DNA of 40,068 nt from a virus (IMGVR_UViG_2778261349_000008:1-40068), one strand, 5' to 3'; numbered from the stretch's first letter, positions 14,516 to 18,564 are shown. Numbers and translations: made by a program. Notes: generated by a model from the sequence alone, not told the origin.

Positions 14516-15164
14516 TGGCAGCAAATACCGAAATATTTGGGTAGTTGGCGATCTGCACGGATGCTACACGAACCTGATGAAAAAACTGGAGACGATAGGA
14601 TTCGACACCAAAAAAGACCTGCTTATCTCGGTGGGCGATTTGGTTGATCGCGGTACAGAGAACGTCGAATGTCTGGAATTAATCACATTCCCCTGGTTCC
14701 GAGCTGTACGTGGAAACCATGAGCAAATGATGATTGATGGCTTATCAGAGCGTGGAAACGTCAATCACTGGCTGTTTAATGGCGGTGGCTGGTTCTTTAA
14801 TCTCGATTACGACAAAGAAATTCTGGCTAAAGCTCTTGCCCATAAAGCAGATGAACTTCCGTTAATCATCGAACTGGTGAGCGAAGGTAAAAAATATGTC
14901 ATCTGCCACGCCGATTATCCCTGTGACGAATACGAGTTTGGAAAGCCAGTTGATCATCAGCAGGTAATCTGGAACCGCGAACGAATCAGCAACTCACAAG
15001 ACGGGATCGTGAAAGAAATCAAAGGAGCGGACACGTTCATCTTTGGTCATACGCCAGCAGTGAAACCACTCAAGTTTGCCAACCAGATGTATATCGATAC
15101 CGGCGCAGTGTTCTGCGGAAACCTCACATTGATTCAGGTACAGGGAGAAGGCGCATGGGCATAA
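14493..15164 (+). CDS. Ser/Thr protein phosphatase (lambda NinI-like metallophosphatase)
   Basis: Internal ATG with GGAG RBS; [28 protein letters not shown]...GNHE metallophosphatase motifs matching lambda phosphatase from memory. Confidence 0.9.
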
Positions 15165-15673
15165 GAGAACTAAACCTCACCAAAGAGCAGCACGAGTGGC
15201 TGAATGGCTGGCTTGAACTGTGGGGAGCATGGGTTTATTCAGGTCGTCTGGAAAAGCGCATGAGCAGCGTAATAGCTAAGTTCATGGAGAGCGTAGAGCC
15301 GGGAAGAGTTATGACAAGGCCAATGTGTAATGATGATGATGGAATGTTGATTTCTCAGGTCGTCGATTCCGTCATGTACATTGACAAGAAAGCCTTTGGC
15401 ATCCTCCTCAGCTACTACGCTCATGGTTCATCTAAGCGAGCAATTGCATCCTACTATCACGCGACTGCAAAGCCACGCAAGATGTGTGGGCGTGGTGGCG
15501 AGGGATGGAGAAAACCTTCACTGGCAACCTGTAGAAACGAAATTGACGATATCCTGAAAGCGTCATTATTTGTTTTGTACCAACCAATGCAAAATGCTTT
15601 CAAAATGCGTAAACGTGTTGAGAAAGTTAAGCATATTGCTGTTAAAAGTCTTGACATGCAATTAGCCATTTAG
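15155..15673 (+). CDS. Late-gene antiterminator Q (P22 gene 23 family)
   Basis: 172-aa ORF at the end of the nin region; WGAW and CNDDDGMLI motifs resemble P22 gp23 as I recall it. Confidence 0.7.
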
Positions 15674-15690
15674 CCATAATTAGAAGGTAA

Positions 15691-15732
15691 GCTGCCGTTA
15701 GTGACTCTTAAGTTGCAACGGTGGCTTTTTTT
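15691..15732 (+). terminator. Putative tR'-like terminator downstream of Q
   Basis: Imperfect stem (gctgccgtt...aacggtggc, with G-U pairs) followed by a T7 run. Confidence 0.4.
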
Positions 15733-15736
15733 ATTT

Positions 15737-15811
15737 GGGTCAGTCGTATAAAGGTCATTACGGAAGGCTGTTAACCTTCTTATCGTGGTTCGAGTCCACG
15801 CTGTCCCGCCA
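15737..15811 (+). tRNA. Phage-encoded tRNA candidate, anticodon GUU (Asn)
   Basis: Hand-folded cloverleaf: acceptor stem with one mismatch, GG in the D-loop, perfect 5-bp anticodon stem with loop cuGUUaa, T-arm cgtgg-TTCGAGT-ccacg, 3' CCA encoded. Confidence 0.5.
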
Positions 15812-15816
15812 AATAT

Positions 15817-15892
15817 GCTGGTTTATCTCCAATGGTAGAGCAGTCGCCTTGTAAGCGAATGGGTAGCGGTTCAAGTCCGTTAACCAGCACCA
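15817..15892 (+). tRNA. Phage-encoded tRNA candidate, anticodon UGU (Thr)
   Basis: Hand-folded cloverleaf: perfect 7-bp acceptor stem gctggtt/aaccagc, anticodon loop ctTGTaa, T-loop TTCAAGT, 3' CCA encoded. Confidence 0.55.
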
Positions 15893-16134
15893 TAACTGAG
15901 CCGTAGCCACTGGCTATCATGAATTCATCAGTGATAGTTACGCTGCGGCCTTCTACACATGACCTTCGTGAAAGCGGGTGGCAAGAGGTTGCGCTAACAA
16001 CCTCCTGCCGTTTTGCCCGTGCATATCGGTCACGAACAAATCTGATTACTAAACACAGTAGCCTGGATTTGTTCTATCAGTAATCGACCTTATTCCTAAT
16101 TAAATAGAGCAAATCCCCTTATTGGGGGTAAGAC

Positions 16135-16458
16135 ATGAAGATGCCAGAAAAACATGACCTGTTAGCCGCCATTCTCGCGGCAAAGGAACAAGGCATCGGG
16201 GCAATCCTTGCGTTTGCAATGGCGTACCTTCGCGGCAGATATAATGGCGGTGCGTTTACAAAAACAGTAATCGACGCAACGATGTGCGCCATTATCGCCT
16301 GGTTCATTCGTGACCTTCTCGACTTCGCCGGACTAAGTAGCAATCTCGCTTATATAACGAGCGTGTTCATCGGCTACATCGGTACTGACTCGATTGGTTC
16401 GCTTATCAAACGCTTCGCTGCTAAAAAAGCCGGAGTAGAAGATGGTGGAAATCAATAA
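16135..16458 (+). CDS. Holin (P22 gene 13-like)
   Basis: 107-aa membrane protein [34 protein letters not shown]... matching P22 holin from memory. Confidence 0.85.
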
Positions 16459-16918
16459 TCAACGTAAGGCGTTCCTCGATATGCTGGCGTGGTCAGAGGG
16501 AACTGATAACGGACGACAGAAAACCAGAAATCATGGTTATGACGTCATTGTAGGCGGAGAGCTATTCACTGATTACTCCGATCACCCTCGCAAACTTGTC
16601 ACGCTAAACCCAAAACTCAAATCAACAGCAGCCGGACGTTACCAGCTTCTTTCCCGTTGGTGGGATGCCTATCGTAAGCAGCTTGGCCTGAAAGACTTCT
16701 CTCCGAAAAGTCAGGACGCTGTGGCACTGCAACAGATTAAAGAGCGTGGCGCTTTACCGATGATTGATCGCGGTGATATTCGTCAGGCTATCGACCGTTG
16801 CAGCAATATCTGGGCTTCACTTCCGGGGGCTGGTTATGGTCAGTTCGAGCATAAGGCTGACAGCCTGATTGCAAAATTCAAAGAAGCAGGCGGAACGGTC
16901 AGAGAGATTGAGGTATGA
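16442..16918 (+). CDS. R: Endolysin, lambda R-type lytic transglycosylase
   Basis: 158-aa [54 protein letters not shown]... matching lambda R from memory. Confidence 0.9.
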
Positions 16919-17352
16919 GCAGAGTAACCGCGATTATCTCCGCTCTGGTTATCTGCATCATCGTCTGCCTGTCATGGGCTGTTAATCATTACCGTGATAA
17001 CGCAATCGCCTACAAAGAGCAGCGCGATAAAGCCACATCCATCATCGCTGACATGCAGAAGCGTCAACGTGATGTAGCAGAACTCGACGCCAGATACACA
17101 AAGGAGCTTGCTGATGCTAACGCGACTATCGAAAGTCTCCGTGCTGATGTTTCTGCTGGTCGTAAGCGCCTGCAAGTCGCCGCCACCTGTGCAAAGTCAA
17201 CGACCGGAGCCAGCAGCATGGGCGATGGAGAAAGCCCAAGACTTACAGCAGATGCTGAACTCAATTATTACCGTCTCCGAAGTGGAATCGACAGGATAAC
17301 CGCGCAGGTTAACTACCTGCAGGAATACATCAGGACGCAATGCCTTCGATGA
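16915..17352 (+). CDS. Rz: Rz i-spanin
   Basis: 145-aa ORF with N-terminal transmembrane segment and coiled-coil periplasmic domain, following the endolysin. Confidence 0.8.
17108..17299 (+). CDS. Rz1: Rz1 o-spanin lipoprotein, embedded in Rz in the +1 frame
   Basis: Lipobox LVVSAC followed by a Pro-rich segment; fully nested in Rz; true start may be an internal Met. Confidence 0.65.
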
Positions 17353-17492
17353 TAGCGATAATTTTACTCATCATCCTTCACATCTGGCTCTGTAGGCAGG
17401 GTGGTGAACACTTCTGGAGTGAATCCGGATTAAATATCTCATTGCTGATGCTTGATATTGAGCATCTGGCGCGCGGTAAGGGGCTGCGTTGA
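17349..17492 (+). CDS. Hypothetical small hydrophobic protein (47 aa) coupled to the Rz stop
   Basis: ATG overlaps the Rz stop (ATGA); N-terminal hydrophobic stretch [14 protein letters not shown]; below the ORF-track cut-off. Confidence 0.3.
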
Positions 17493-17693
17493 GATAAGAG
17501 CCAGTCATTACAAATACCAGGATTTAGCCTCGCATTCGCGGGGCTTTTTATATCTGAATTTCACAGCGCATCTCACGCGCATATTAACGAGAGCCTTTCA
17601 GTAAGCGAGCCTGAGAAATGCCGTTATAGGTGGCGACCTCTCTCGGGCGGCTTTTCTGTGAGACAGGCTCACTTTCTAAAAGGTAAAGACGCT

Positions 17694-18212
17694 ATGAATC
17701 ATCAATTGGCTAATCTCGATTTCCGGGACATGGTGGTTGTTTCTGGTGATCGCGTGATCACAACCTCCCGCAAGGTAGCAGCTTACTTCGACAAGCAGCA
17801 TCACCACATCATTCAGAAAATCGAAAAGCTAGACTGTTCGGATGAATTTCTAACCAGCAACTTTTCGCGGGTTACCTATGAACACAAGGGTAATCAGTAT
17901 GTTGAATATGAAATTTCCAAAGACGGCGCGATGTACATCATCATGTCGTTTACCGGCAAAAAAGCTGCCGCCATCAAAGAGGCGTTTATCAAAGCATTTA
18001 ATTGGATGCGTGACAGGCTGATGGAGATGGCTCACTCATACCAAAGAGAGCACAACGAGTTAATGCTGGAGTTCATGAAGGAAAAGGATGTTGCCAGTAT
18101 GTCAGGACGCTTGCTGAACCGCTGGGGCAGGATCAAAAAACCGCAACTCATAGCAAGAATCGAAAGGCTTGAGCAGCAGGCGCAAATATCGATCCCCGGA
18201 CTGCCAAAGTGA
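17694..18212 (+). CDS. rha: Rha-family phage regulatory protein
   Basis: Position between the lysis cassette and terminase, as rha in P22; N-terminal DNA-binding-like domain; start taken at the internal ATG (MNHQLANLDF). Confidence 0.6.
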   Translation: MNHQLANLDFRDMVVVSGDRVITTSRKVAAYFDKQHHHIIQKIEKLDCSDEFLTSNFSRVTYEHKGNQYVEYEISKDGAMYIIMSFTGKKAAAIKEAFIKAFNWMRDRLMEMAHSYQREHNELMLEFMKEKDVASMSGRLLNRWGRIKKPQLIARIERLEQQAQISIPGLPK

Positions 18213-18564
18213 CCATTCCAAAGCCCATCTACGGGTGGGCTTGATAATGAAACCGTGATTTACATCCCCACAATCCGGGTATGTAAAAGATAGTTCAGGC
18301 GAGAACAGATTTAACTAAATCTGTGCACCTCCAGTTGCGGCAGTACAGCGAAACAACCCAAGCCAGTAAGTGGGGAAATAACACTGGCAGCCACTGAAAG
18401 ATGAACCTCCTGCCTTATGGCAAAAAAGATTCTTTGTGGTGGCGGACTGATGGAAAGACATCGGTTATTGCAGAGACCATTCAATGAGTGGTCTCGACAA
18501 TGGCTTATACCCTACACGGGATAACTTAACTGATATCCCTTTTAACGGATAAACGGAGCCAACA

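What the first reader, a model, noticed from the sequence alone, without database searches (positions are those of the whole stretch)
17349..17492. Small hydrophobic ORF coupled to the Rz stop
A 47-aa ORF with a hydrophobic N-terminus starts with an ATG overlapping the Rz stop. It could be an extra lysis-associated membrane peptide or a chance ORF.
Basis: seen in the sequence. Interest (0 to 1): 0.2.

Follow-up and report, generated by a model that had tools for sequence, protein, structure and literature searches.

The report
Small membrane-peptide gene ending lysis cassette
The 47-codon reading frame that starts on the Rz stop codon is most likely a real but uncharacterised small membrane-peptide gene. 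It closes the lysis gene cluster of many temperate phages of E. coli, Salmonella, Shigella and Klebsiella, and databases already list it as a hypothetical protein.

Summary
ATG 17349-17351 overlaps the Rz stop TGA 17350-17352, and the frame runs to TGA 17490-17492, giving 47 aa with a hydrophobic N-terminus. GenBank and PGAP annotate the same frame from ATG 17340 as 50 aa (Sf6 gene 65, epsilon34 gp67, PHROG 11822, "hypothetical protein").

The ORF lies in a discrete module of about 170 nt (17346-17514). This module is absent from phi80-type phages and present in 1945 of 5426 complete E. coli genomes.

Relatives at 40-60% identity occur in Klebsiella, Raoultella and Kluyvera genomes and in metagenome contigs. 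They are 44-47 aa and always form the last ORF of a lysis cluster, behind unrelated holins, endolysins and spanins. In each case the homology begins at the start codon.

- **Selection signal.** Selection is patchy. The hydrophobic N-terminal codons and the C-terminal E-H-P-A-R-G-K-G-L-R codons show codon-phase constraint. The middle evolves neutrally.
- **Weak points.** Within E. coli alone no constraint is detectable, and broken copies exist.

Best reading: a dispensable, late-expressed small inner-membrane peptide, translationally coupled to the preceding lysis gene. Its role in lysis is inferred, not shown. I found no literature on it. Interest is modest.

The parts
16135..16458 (+). Holin S (lambda S107/S105 type), first gene of the lysis cassette (context)
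   Evidence: ORF list. Annotated as holin in Sf6, epsilon34 and by PGAP at the homologous position.
16442..16918 (+). Endolysin R (context)
   Evidence: Under strong purifying selection in the same loci: 85% synonymous variants.
16915..17352 (+). Rz i-spanin. Its stop TGA 17350-17352 overlaps the small ORF's ATG.
   Evidence: PF03245 E = 1.9e-36 and phrog_13 E = 9.9e-73.
17114..17299 (+). Rz1 o-spanin, embedded in the +1 frame of Rz (context)
   Evidence: Position transferred from the Sf6, epsilon34 and CUS-3 annotations. The frame is open and carries a lipobox, VVSAC.
17332..17335 (+). Shine-Dalgarno-like AGGA, 4 nt before ATG 17340 and 13 nt before ATG 17349
   Evidence: Read from the sequence. 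It lies inside the Rz codons ATC AGG ACG.
17340..17348 (+). Optional N-terminal extension (MPS) of the database-annotated 50-aa form
   Evidence: The same ATG also exists in phi80-type phages that lack the ORF, where it opens only a 13-codon frame. Its presence is therefore explained by the Rz codons CAA TGC.
17349..17492 (+). The small ORF: 47 aa. It has a hydrophobic N-terminal helix ending in IWLCR, a variable linker with an invariant Trp, and a conserved basic C-terminus [10 protein letters not shown].
   Evidence: phrog_11822 E = 4.5e-36. Family alignments. Regional selection tests.
17346..17514 (+). The mobile module that carries the ORF. It is a present/absent polymorphism, with mosaic junctions at 17317 or 17346 on the left and 17514 or 17551 on the right.
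   Evidence: megablast break points. Absent in phi80, L213 and L214.
17493..17514 (+). Conserved 3' untranslated stretch GATAAGAGCCAGTCATTAC. CATTAC is the 5' arm of a stem-loop that is complete in relatives but truncated here.
17526..17552 (+). Intrinsic terminator: AGCCTCGC-ATTC-GCGGGGCT followed by TTTTTAT
   Evidence: Terminator scan. Annotated as a rho-independent terminator in epsilon34 and phi80.

Best explanation
The ORF is a genuine but dispensable protein-coding gene, the last cistron of the lysis cassette.

- **Transcription (inferred).** It is transcribed only as part of the late, Q-dependent transcript that carries S, R and Rz/Rz1.
- **Translation (inferred).** Ribosomes finishing the preceding gene initiate on it. 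In this window that means ATGA stop-start coupling at 17349, possibly with some initiation at 17340.
- **Product (inferred).** The peptide is 47 aa. Its uncharged hydrophobic N-terminus inserts into the inner membrane, N-terminus out, with the invariant Arg and the basic ARGKGLR tail on the cytoplasmic side.
- **Role (inferred, least certain).** It most likely acts as an accessory factor that tunes lysis through holin or spanin function or timing, rather than as a required component.

Shown here: the ORF, its conservation and synteny, the module boundaries, and the phase-specific constraint.
For: 1. **Synteny with non-homologous neighbours.** Homologues of 44-47 aa lie at the end of lysis clusters built from different parts. 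The holins are lambda S, Phage_holin_2_1, 3_1, 3_3 and 3_7/8. The endolysins are lambda R type, Phage_lysozyme and GH19. The spanins are phrog_13, phrog_312/DUF2514 and phrog_1026.
2. **Homology starts at the ATG.** Upstream DNA is unrelated between contexts. Even so, the start codon always lies -4 to +7 nt from the upstream stop, and most contexts have a Shine-Dalgarno-like motif (GAGG, AGGTGA, AAGGTGA).
3. **Module boundaries hug the ORF.** The module 17346-17514 spans the ORF at 17349-17492.
4. **Codon-phase constraint.** In N-terminal codons 2-8, inferred changes fall 26/5/36 on codon positions 1/2/3. In C-terminal codons 36-45 they fall 37/10/42, with 42 synonymous changes against 29.8 +/- 4.0 expected (P = 0.0013). 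The middle region shows 87/104/92 and serves as an internal negative control.
5. **Invariant Arg.** The Arg after IWLC is encoded by five different codons: AGA, AGG, CGA, CGG and CGT.
6. **Best of six frames.** The ORF frame has 8 codon columns with only synonymous variation, against 0-4 in the other five frames.
7. **Nonsense depletion.** 6 inferred nonsense changes against 13.4 +/- 3.4 expected, P = 0.019.
8. **Hydropathy.** The uncharged N-terminal run is 13-18 residues (Kyte-Doolittle 11-residue mean about 3.0-3.4), followed by an invariant Arg. AlphaFold2 gives a helix, with pLDDT 88 for residues 1-10.
9. **No own promoter.** The consensus scan found none. A terminator follows the ORF.
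Against: - Over the whole ORF there is no excess of synonymous change. Tree-based counts give 106 against 104.5 expected. The M0 codon model gives omega = 0.99. Pairwise omega is 0.3-1.2.
- Within the E. coli type alone, 35% of variants are synonymous against a null of 29% (P = 0.22), and nonsense variants occur at the expected rate. In the same loci S, R and Rz show 74%, 85% and 54% synonymous variants and no nonsense.
- Nucleotide diversity in the ORF (0.034) is no lower than in the adjacent untranslated 22 nt (0.028).
- Broken copies exist: two independent W13 nonsense alleles, 3'-end frameshifts, a stop loss and five recombinant loci; a transposon insertion in phage SEN22; and a stop codon or degenerate copies in Klebsiella phages.
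- The hydrophobic run in the 45-aa forms is only 13 residues, which is short for a membrane span.
- The divergent members came partly from protein databases, which list only open frames.
- There is no Pfam, NCBIfam, PADLOC or PDB relative. I found no expression data and no literature.
Confidence: 0.6

Rival explanations
1. Chance ORF. The ~170-nt module is non-coding spacer or a recombination boundary at the end of the lysis cassette, and the frame is open only because the copies are young and similar.
For: - Within the E. coli type the substitution pattern cannot be told from neutral, and nonsense alleles occur at the expected rate.
- Diversity equals that of the flanking untranslated DNA.
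- Whole-ORF omega is about 1.
- DNA conservation continues past the stop codon into GAGATAAGAGCC.
- Several disrupted copies exist.
Against: - It does not explain an open frame of constant length at 40-60% identity in at least 10 clusters.
- It does not explain a left homology boundary that falls at an ATG in several unrelated upstream contexts.
- It does not explain the depletion of second-codon-position changes in the N- and C-terminal blocks, which is absent from the middle.
- It does not explain the five synonymous Arg codons at an invariant position or the two-fold nonsense depletion.
Confidence: 0.12
2. A real small membrane protein whose job is not lysis: a late-expressed cargo gene parked at the lysis/packaging junction. 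Possible roles are exclusion of superinfecting phage, a membrane effect that benefits particle release, or interaction with the packaging genes that follow it in some phages.
For: - It is a present/absent module with its own downstream hairpin or terminator, like a moron.
- It is dispensable, since lambda and phi80 lack it.
- Its linker region evolves at the neutral rate or faster, as expected for a surface that tracks a variable partner.
- In Klebsiella-type phages the next gene is the small terminase.
Against: - No promoter of its own was found, so it would not be expressed from a repressed prophage as classic morons are.
- Its upstream neighbour is always a lysis-cluster gene with a gap of 8 nt or less, whereas its downstream neighbour varies: Rha, terminase or unknown genes.
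- No match to known defence families.
Confidence: 0.18
3. A cis-acting regulatory ORF, meaning a leader or nascent arrest peptide. What matters is that a ribosome translates to, or pauses at, the conserved C-terminal codons. That would affect the stem-loop or terminator that begins 12-14 nt (in relatives) or 34 nt (here) after the stop. The N-terminal hydrophobic segment would report membrane insertion, as in SecM, MifM or VemP.
For: - Selection acts on openness, on the N-terminal hydrophobic segment and on the last 10 codons, but not on the linker, whose length is nevertheless fixed.
- Trp and the C-terminal ARGKGLR-stop are invariant.
- A covarying stem-loop lies at a constant 12-14 nt after the stop in most relatives.
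- At 45 aa, the N-terminal segment would just be leaving the ribosome tunnel when the stop codon is reached. This point is my inference from published work on force-sensing arrest peptides, not a test.
Against: - The stem-loop does not sequester the next gene's ribosome-binding site.
- The stem-loop is replaced by an ordinary terminator in this window.
- Q-modified RNA polymerase should ignore terminators anyway (established lambda biology).
- There is no resemblance to known arrest motifs and no experimental hint.
- A small membrane protein with a basic cytoplasmic tail explains the same pattern more simply.
Confidence: 0.06

Closest known systems
Shigella phage Sf6 gene 65 protein / Salmonella phage epsilon34 gp67 / PHROG phrog_11822 (all annotated with unknown function)
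   Same: Same gene family and same position. The match to phrog_11822 is full-length (E = 4.5e-36, 50/50 positions). Protein identity is 92-94%. It follows Rz and overlaps its end.
   Different: Nothing substantive. The window's exact 50-aa sequence is already present on 240 public contigs. The databases start it at ATG 17340 rather than 17349.
The four-gene lambda lysis cassette S-R-Rz/Rz1
   Same: The window carries that cassette. The ORF is co-oriented with it, overlaps its last stop codon and precedes the terminator.
   Different: Lambda and phi80 themselves lack the ORF (for phi80; my knowledge of the lambda map). The epsilon34 genome paper describes the lambdoid lysis module as four genes and does not discuss gp67 (PMC2629481). 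The ORF would be a fifth, optional cistron.
Small accessory lysis regulators encoded in lysis clusters (antiholins such as lambda S107, P1 LydB and T4 RI/RIII; P2 LysA/LysB; Mu releasin gp25). These are recalled from the literature, not tested here.
   Same: Small, often membrane-associated, non-essential proteins encoded inside lysis clusters that modulate timing or completion of lysis. That is the working model proposed for this ORF.
   Different: No sequence similarity was found to any annotated family. The position is after the spanin rather than next to the holin. No functional data exist.
Morons: single genes inserted between conserved phage genes with their own promoter and terminator (concept cited in PMC2629481)
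   Same: A discrete insertion present in some phages and absent from otherwise collinear relatives. A hairpin or terminator follows it.
   Different: No promoter of its own was found. It starts within a few nucleotides of the upstream stop, so it depends on late transcription and on upstream translation.
Membrane-insertion-monitoring arrest peptides (SecM, MifM, VemP). Recalled from the literature as a resemblance only.
   Same: An N-terminal hydrophobic targeting segment, an unconstrained linker of fixed length, a conserved C-terminal motif, and an mRNA stem-loop just downstream.
   Different: The stem-loop does not mask the next ribosome-binding site. There is no shared motif. The stem-loop is missing in this window. 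Stalling has not been tested.

Membership tests
PHROG phrog_11822 (Sf6 gp65-like small proteins, unknown function) | Significant full-length match to the family profile | tested here: met
   E = 4.5e-36, residues 1-50 on profile positions 1-50 of 50.
PHROG phrog_11822 (Sf6 gp65-like small proteins, unknown function) | Same genomic position as named members: directly after Rz/Rz1 and before a terminator | tested here: met
   Sf6 gene 65, epsilon34 gp67 and PGAP WP_053878044 occupy the homologous coordinates.
Holin / antiholin | Match to a holin family profile | tested here: not met
   No Pfam or NCBIfam hit at E <= 0.1. The only PHROG hit is the family of unknown function.
Holin / antiholin | At least one full transmembrane domain plus a charged C-terminal tail | tested here: inconclusive
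   The uncharged hydrophobic run is 15-18 residues here but only 13 in the 45-aa relatives. A basic C-terminal tail is present. AlphaFold2 gives one long helix at low confidence, pLDDT 66.
Holin / antiholin | Controls the timing of membrane permeabilisation | not testable with these tools
   Needs lysis curves of mutants.
o-spanin / u-spanin (outer-membrane lipoprotein) | Signal peptide ending in a lipobox, [LVI][ASTVI][GAS]C | tested here: not met
   The only Cys sits in I-W-L-C-R, with Leu at -1 and no basic n-region. Some copies have Tyr or Phe in place of Cys. The true o-spanin Rz1 is present separately at 17114-17299.
Moron | Discrete insertion relative to collinear relatives | tested here: met
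   Absent in phi80, L213 and L214, with junctions at 17346 and before the terminator.
Moron | Own promoter allowing expression from the prophage | tested here: not met
   No sigma-70-like site on the + strand in 16000-18300. This is a consensus scan only, so it is weak evidence.
Moron | Own terminator | tested here: met
   Terminator at 17526-17545 plus T-run. Relatives have a covarying stem-loop instead.
Type I toxin-antitoxin (Hok/Ldr/TisB-like small hydrophobic toxins) | Overlapping or adjacent antisense RNA gene with its own promoter | tested here: not met
   No promoter-like site on the - strand near the ORF. No Rfam family in 15600-18300 apart from two tRNAs.
Nascent arrest peptide / monitoring substrate (SecM, MifM, VemP class) | N-terminal targeting segment and a C-terminal motif conserved at the amino-acid level | tested here: met
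   Phase-specific constraint in codons 2-8 and 36-45.
Nascent arrest peptide / monitoring substrate (SecM, MifM, VemP class) | Downstream mRNA structure that masks the regulated gene's ribosome-binding site and is opened by the stalled ribosome | tested here: not met
   A stem-loop exists in relatives 12-14 nt after the stop, but the next gene's Shine-Dalgarno lies outside it. In the window it is replaced by a terminator.
Nascent arrest peptide / monitoring substrate (SecM, MifM, VemP class) | Translation arrest at the motif | not testable with these tools
   Needs toeprinting or ribosome profiling.

The most novel reading that the evidence does not exclude
The ORF is not primarily a protein product but a translated sensor. 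Its N-terminal hydrophobic segment and its conserved C-terminal ARGKGLR-stop motif would make the ribosome's dwell time at the end of the lysis cassette depend on membrane insertion. That in turn would change the fate of the adjacent conserved stem-loop or terminator, through mRNA processing, stability or read-through into the packaging genes. It would be a phage counterpart of SecM, MifM or VemP.

A less exotic but still new reading is a fifth, optional lysis-cassette component that regulates spanin or holin action. I put that at about 0.25-0.3.
Probability: 0.05. Interest if true: 0.75.

Novelty: new member of a known kind. Interest (0 to 1): 0.35.

Why it matters
The lambdoid lysis cassette is one of the best-studied gene sets in virology and is usually described as four genes. 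A fifth, conserved, translationally coupled small membrane-peptide gene sits at its end in about a third of complete E. coli genomes (1945 of 5426, including O157:H7 prophages) and in model phages Sf6, HK620, CUS-3 and epsilon34. It has never been tested.

If it modulates lysis timing or spanin or holin action, it would add an overlooked regulator to a textbook system and could affect phage and Shiga-toxin release. If it has no phenotype, it is one more dispensable small ORF. For annotation, the family evidence favours the start at 17349 over the start at 17340 that the databases use.

Tried and rejected
- **Family searches.** Pfam, NCBIfam, PADLOC and PDB sequence searches gave nothing.
- **RNA families.** Rfam found only two tRNAs upstream in the window and nothing for the stem-loop in relatives.
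- **Structure.** AlphaFold2 gave a single long helix at low confidence (pLDDT 66), so I ran no fold search.
- **Minus-strand ORF.** The 45-aa ORF at 17371-17508 has no family match and no better synonymous pattern than the other frames. Rejected.
- **Lipoprotein or second o-spanin.** Rejected because the lipobox fails.
- **Rz-ORF fusion by frameshifting.** Rejected. I saw no slippery site in 17311-17349, and relatives with unrelated upstream genes have stops and spacers before the ATG.
- **Whole-ORF dN/dS.** Pairwise NG86, M0 and tree counts gave omega of about 0.6-1 and were uninformative. M1a against omega = 1 was significant in frame 0 (LRT 82.7) but also in the two control frames (31.8 and 40.3), so I do not rely on it.
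- **Alternative 34-aa tail.** Five recombinant loci carry a different 34-aa hydrophobic tail. I judged this uninformative because it is AT-rich junction DNA.
- **RNA pairing.** A small hairpin inside the last codons and a possible antiterminator pairing with the downstream hairpin rest on only 5-7 bp and no convincing covariation. Not pursued beyond the folds.
- **Literature.** Searches by locus tag, peptide string, accession numbers and topic found nothing on this ORF.
- **Genome-collection scan.** It found only 6 loci: E. coli, E. albertii and MAGs assigned to unrelated taxa (Bacillota, Cellvibrionaceae, Collinsella), which I take to be mis-binned.

Full report
**What is in the window.** The window is a P22-like (Lederbergvirus-type) prophage. 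It carries a lambda-type lysis cassette:
- S at 16135-16458.
- R at 16442-16918.
- Rz at 16915-17352, with Rz1 embedded at 17114-17299.

Downstream come a Rha-family gene (17658-18212), two small ORFs and Sf6-like terminase genes.

Rz ends ...TGC CTT CGA TGA. The ATG at 17349 overlaps that stop as ATGA, and the frame stays open to TGA 17490-17492. It encodes [47 protein letters not shown]. An in-frame ATG three codons upstream (17340) has an AGGA 4 nt before it. A terminator hairpin with a T-run follows at 17526-17552.

**Already in the databases.** The same frame, started at 17340 and giving 50 aa, is annotated as Sf6 gene 65, as epsilon34 gp67 and by PGAP as "hypothetical protein". CUS-3 and HK620 leave it unannotated.

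It matches PHROG phrog_11822, a family of unknown function, over its full length (E = 4.5e-36). It matches nothing in Pfam, NCBIfam, PADLOC or the PDB. The window's exact protein is present on 240 public contigs. Source names are "hypothetical protein", "Bacteriophage protein (Gene 65)" and an evidently spurious "FliO".

ORF-only megablast finds the ORF in 1945 of 5426 complete E. coli genomes, at 2289 places. I found no paper that mentions it. The epsilon34 genome paper describes the lambdoid lysis module as four genes (PMC2629481).

**A discrete module.** BLAST break points are sharp, at 17317, 17514 and 17551. In phi80 and in two E. coli prophages, Rz ends ...TGC CTG AAA TAA. About 35 nt of unrelated sequence then lead straight into the same terminator. 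The segment 17346-17514 is therefore present in some phages and absent from others. Its ends lie 3 nt before the ATG and 22 nt after the stop. In mosaic phage genomes, junctions that hug an ORF are what one expects of a gene-sized unit.

**Within the E. coli type, no sign of constraint.** I sampled by DNA, not by gene calls. I scanned IMG/VR for a 20-mer spanning the start and obtained 118 loci:
- 108 keep the 47-aa frame.
- 2 carry independent nonsense changes at Trp13.
- 2 have a frameshift near the 3' end.
- 1 has lost its stop.
- 5 are recombinants that diverge after codon 5.

Variant types were then compared with a permutation null that keeps the mutation spectrum. In the ORF, 35% are synonymous against 29% expected (P = 0.22), and nonsense variants occur at the expected rate. 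In the same loci S, R and Rz show 74%, 85% and 54% synonymous variants (P < 0.0005) and no nonsense. Nucleotide diversity in the ORF (0.034) equals that of the untranslated 22 nt after it (0.028). Salmonella phage SEN22 has a transposon inserted in codon 7.

Taken alone, these data would favour a chance ORF in young DNA.

**Diverged relatives change the picture.** A sensitive blastn of the module found Klebsiella phages. In phage ST16-OXA48phi5.2 a 45-aa ORF, MLILFILLSIWLCRLSEKPGWFKVSHIISMLALEDEHPARGKGLR, starts 2 nt after the Rz stop, behind a GAGG motif.

Protein and profile searches then found members in Klebsiella, Raoultella, Kluyvera and metagenomes, down to about 40-60% identity. All are 44-47 aa. 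There are only 28 clusters among 1.84 billion representative proteins, so the family is small and confined to Enterobacteriaceae.

Their contexts are informative:
- The ORF is always the last ORF of a lysis cluster.
- The clusters differ in their holins (Phage_holin_2_1, 3_1, 3_3, 3_7/8), endolysins (Phage_lysozyme, GH19) and spanins (phrog_312/DUF2514 and phrog_1026, with embedded or overlapping o-spanins).
- In three contexts one more small unknown gene lies between the spanin or endolysin and the ORF.
- The downstream gene varies: small terminase, unknown genes, or Rha.

The DNA upstream of the ATG is unrelated between contexts, so homology begins at the start codon. That codon lies -4 to +7 nt from the upstream stop, usually behind a Shine-Dalgarno-like motif. 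In some Klebsiella prophages the ORF sits behind an unrelated gene and has kept only the last 10 codons of Rz. It therefore moved together with its own initiation region.

**Selection by region.** I added a second DNA-anchored sample, a 17-mer in the IWLC codons of the non-E. coli types, and pooled it with the first. This gave 103 unique sequences, of which 96 were colinear. Changes were inferred on a neighbour-joining tree.

Over the whole ORF, synonymous changes are not enriched (106 against 104.5 expected). Nonsense changes are halved (6 against 13.4 +/- 3.4, P = 0.019). Splitting by region resolves the apparent conflict:

| Region | Changes at codon positions 1/2/3 | Synonymous, observed vs expected |
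|---|---|---|
| Middle, codons 15-35 | 87/104/92 | 64 vs 75.9 |
| C-terminal, codons 36-45 | 37/10/42 | 42 vs 29.8 +/- 4.0 (P = 0.0013) |
| N-terminal hydrophobic, codons 2-8 | 26/5/36 | 36 vs 29.3 +/- 3.4 (P = 0.038) |

In the N-terminal block nearly all replacements are hydrophobic for hydrophobic.

Two further points support coding. The invariant Arg after IWLC uses five different codons. The ORF frame has 8 codon columns with purely synonymous variation, against 0-4 in the other five frames.

The picture is a hydrophobic N-terminal helix and a basic tail, EH(P/L)AR(G/S)KGLR, that are constrained as protein. They are joined by a free linker of fixed length with one invariant Trp.

Caveats:
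- Recombination violates the single-tree assumption.
- Part of the diverged set came from protein databases.
- My M1a likelihood test was also significant in the control frames, so I do not lean on it.

**Which start.** Both ATGs are present in every E. coli-type copy I examined, but those copies were selected with probes that include them. The ATG at 17340 is made by the Rz codons CAA TGC. It also exists in phages that lack the ORF, where it opens only a 13-codon frame. In relatives behind unrelated genes the protein begins directly with the hydrophobic segment, next to the upstream stop. Use of 17340 cannot be excluded.

**Mechanism.**
- *Shown.* A conserved ORF at the 3' end of lysis clusters, tight spacing to the upstream stop, no promoter of its own by consensus scan, a terminator or stem-loop after it, and protein-level constraint at both ends.
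- *Inferred.* It is transcribed only on the late transcript. It is translated by ribosomes coming off the previous gene. It inserts N-out/C-in into the inner membrane: the N-terminal run has no charge, Arg follows directly and the tail is basic. AlphaFold2 gives a helix that is confident only for the first ~10 residues.
- *Least certain.* It acts as a non-essential modulator of lysis.

It is dispensable, since many functional phages lack it or carry broken copies. My estimates are about 0.8 that it is translated, about 0.65-0.7 that it is membrane-anchored, and about 0.3-0.35 that its role is specifically in lysis.

**Rivals.**
- A chance ORF (about 0.12) cannot explain the diverged, length-preserving, start-anchored copies or the phase-specific constraint.
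- A late cargo gene unrelated to lysis (about 0.18) fits the moron-like insertion and the fast linker, but not the invariable attachment to lysis genes.
- A cis-acting leader or arrest peptide (about 0.06) is suggested by the pattern of a constrained N-terminal segment, a free linker and a constrained last 10 codons next to a structured RNA. However, the stem-loop does not mask the next ribosome-binding site and is missing in this window.

**Seen on the way.**
- In most relatives a 36-38-nt stem-loop, CATTAC...GATAATG, starts 12-14 nt after the stop. It has compensatory changes in 8 of 15 pairs and no Rfam match. In the window only its 5' arm survives (17509-17514), before a mosaic junction and a canonical terminator.
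- Two tRNA genes, Asn-GTT and Thr-TGT, lie between the Q-like gene and S.

**Verdict.** The finding is real, and the ORF is very probably a genuine gene. It is already catalogued as a hypothetical protein but functionally untouched. It is an optional fifth cistron of lysis cassettes in enterobacterial temperate phages. Novelty is limited, because it belongs to a known kind (small accessory membrane proteins in lysis clusters) and the ORF is already annotated. Interest is modest (0.35) and rests on its wide distribution and the ease of a decisive genetic test.

Noticed in passing
Relatives: L216:1571-1607, L002 about 1461-1496, L241, L242, L244 and L248 just after the ORF. In the window only 17509-17514 (CATTAC).: A conserved 36-38-nt stem-loop starts 12-14 nt after the ORF's stop in most relatives. 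It has a CAUUA/UAAUG lower stem and a 10-bp upper stem, and 8 of 15 pairs show compensatory changes. It lacks a T-run and matches no Rfam family. In the window a mosaic junction at 17514 replaces all but its 5' arm with a canonical terminator.
   Followed up: partly
window 15737-15811 and 15817-15892 (+): Two tRNA genes, Asn (GTT) and Thr (TGT), lie between the Q-like antiterminator gene (15155-15673) and holin S, at the start of the late operon.
   Followed up: partly
L119, L152, L190, L198, L201 (IMG/VR): Five loci keep only the first five codons of the ORF (ATGATAGCGATAATT). They then switch to unrelated AT-rich DNA that encodes a different 34-aa hydrophobic ORF (MIAIIFPLSFICVILVSFSRNTNKTENHPLYEWF) running into another hairpin.
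   Followed up: partly
L212 (Salmonella phage SEN22, KT630648.2 about 40555-40776): A transposon with a frameshifted transposase is inserted in about codon 7 of the ORF. Rz is no longer adjacent to the remaining part of the ORF.
   Followed up: partly
L217, L237, L239 (Klebsiella prophages): The ORF is found behind an unrelated gene together with only the last ~10 codons of Rz (QEYITTQCLR-stop). The ORF and its initiation region therefore moved as one piece. L217 also has a premature stop at codon 36.
   Followed up: partly
window 17317-17352: The last 12 codons of Rz ([11 protein letters not shown]) are shared by two otherwise different Rz alleles (...VNYLQEY... and ...LRTLQEY...). This makes 17317 a recurrent recombination junction inside Rz.
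   Followed up: partly
Family-wide, codons 15-35 of the ORF (window about 17397-17459): The linker region has slightly fewer synonymous changes than the neutral expectation (64 against 75.9 +/- 7.1). This could be a hint of diversifying selection, or just noise.
   Followed up: no
Public annotations of the same protein: Some IMG copies are named "flagellar biogenesis protein FliO", and some NCBI fragments are named "lysis protein, partial". Both look like artefacts of automatic annotation.
   Followed up: no
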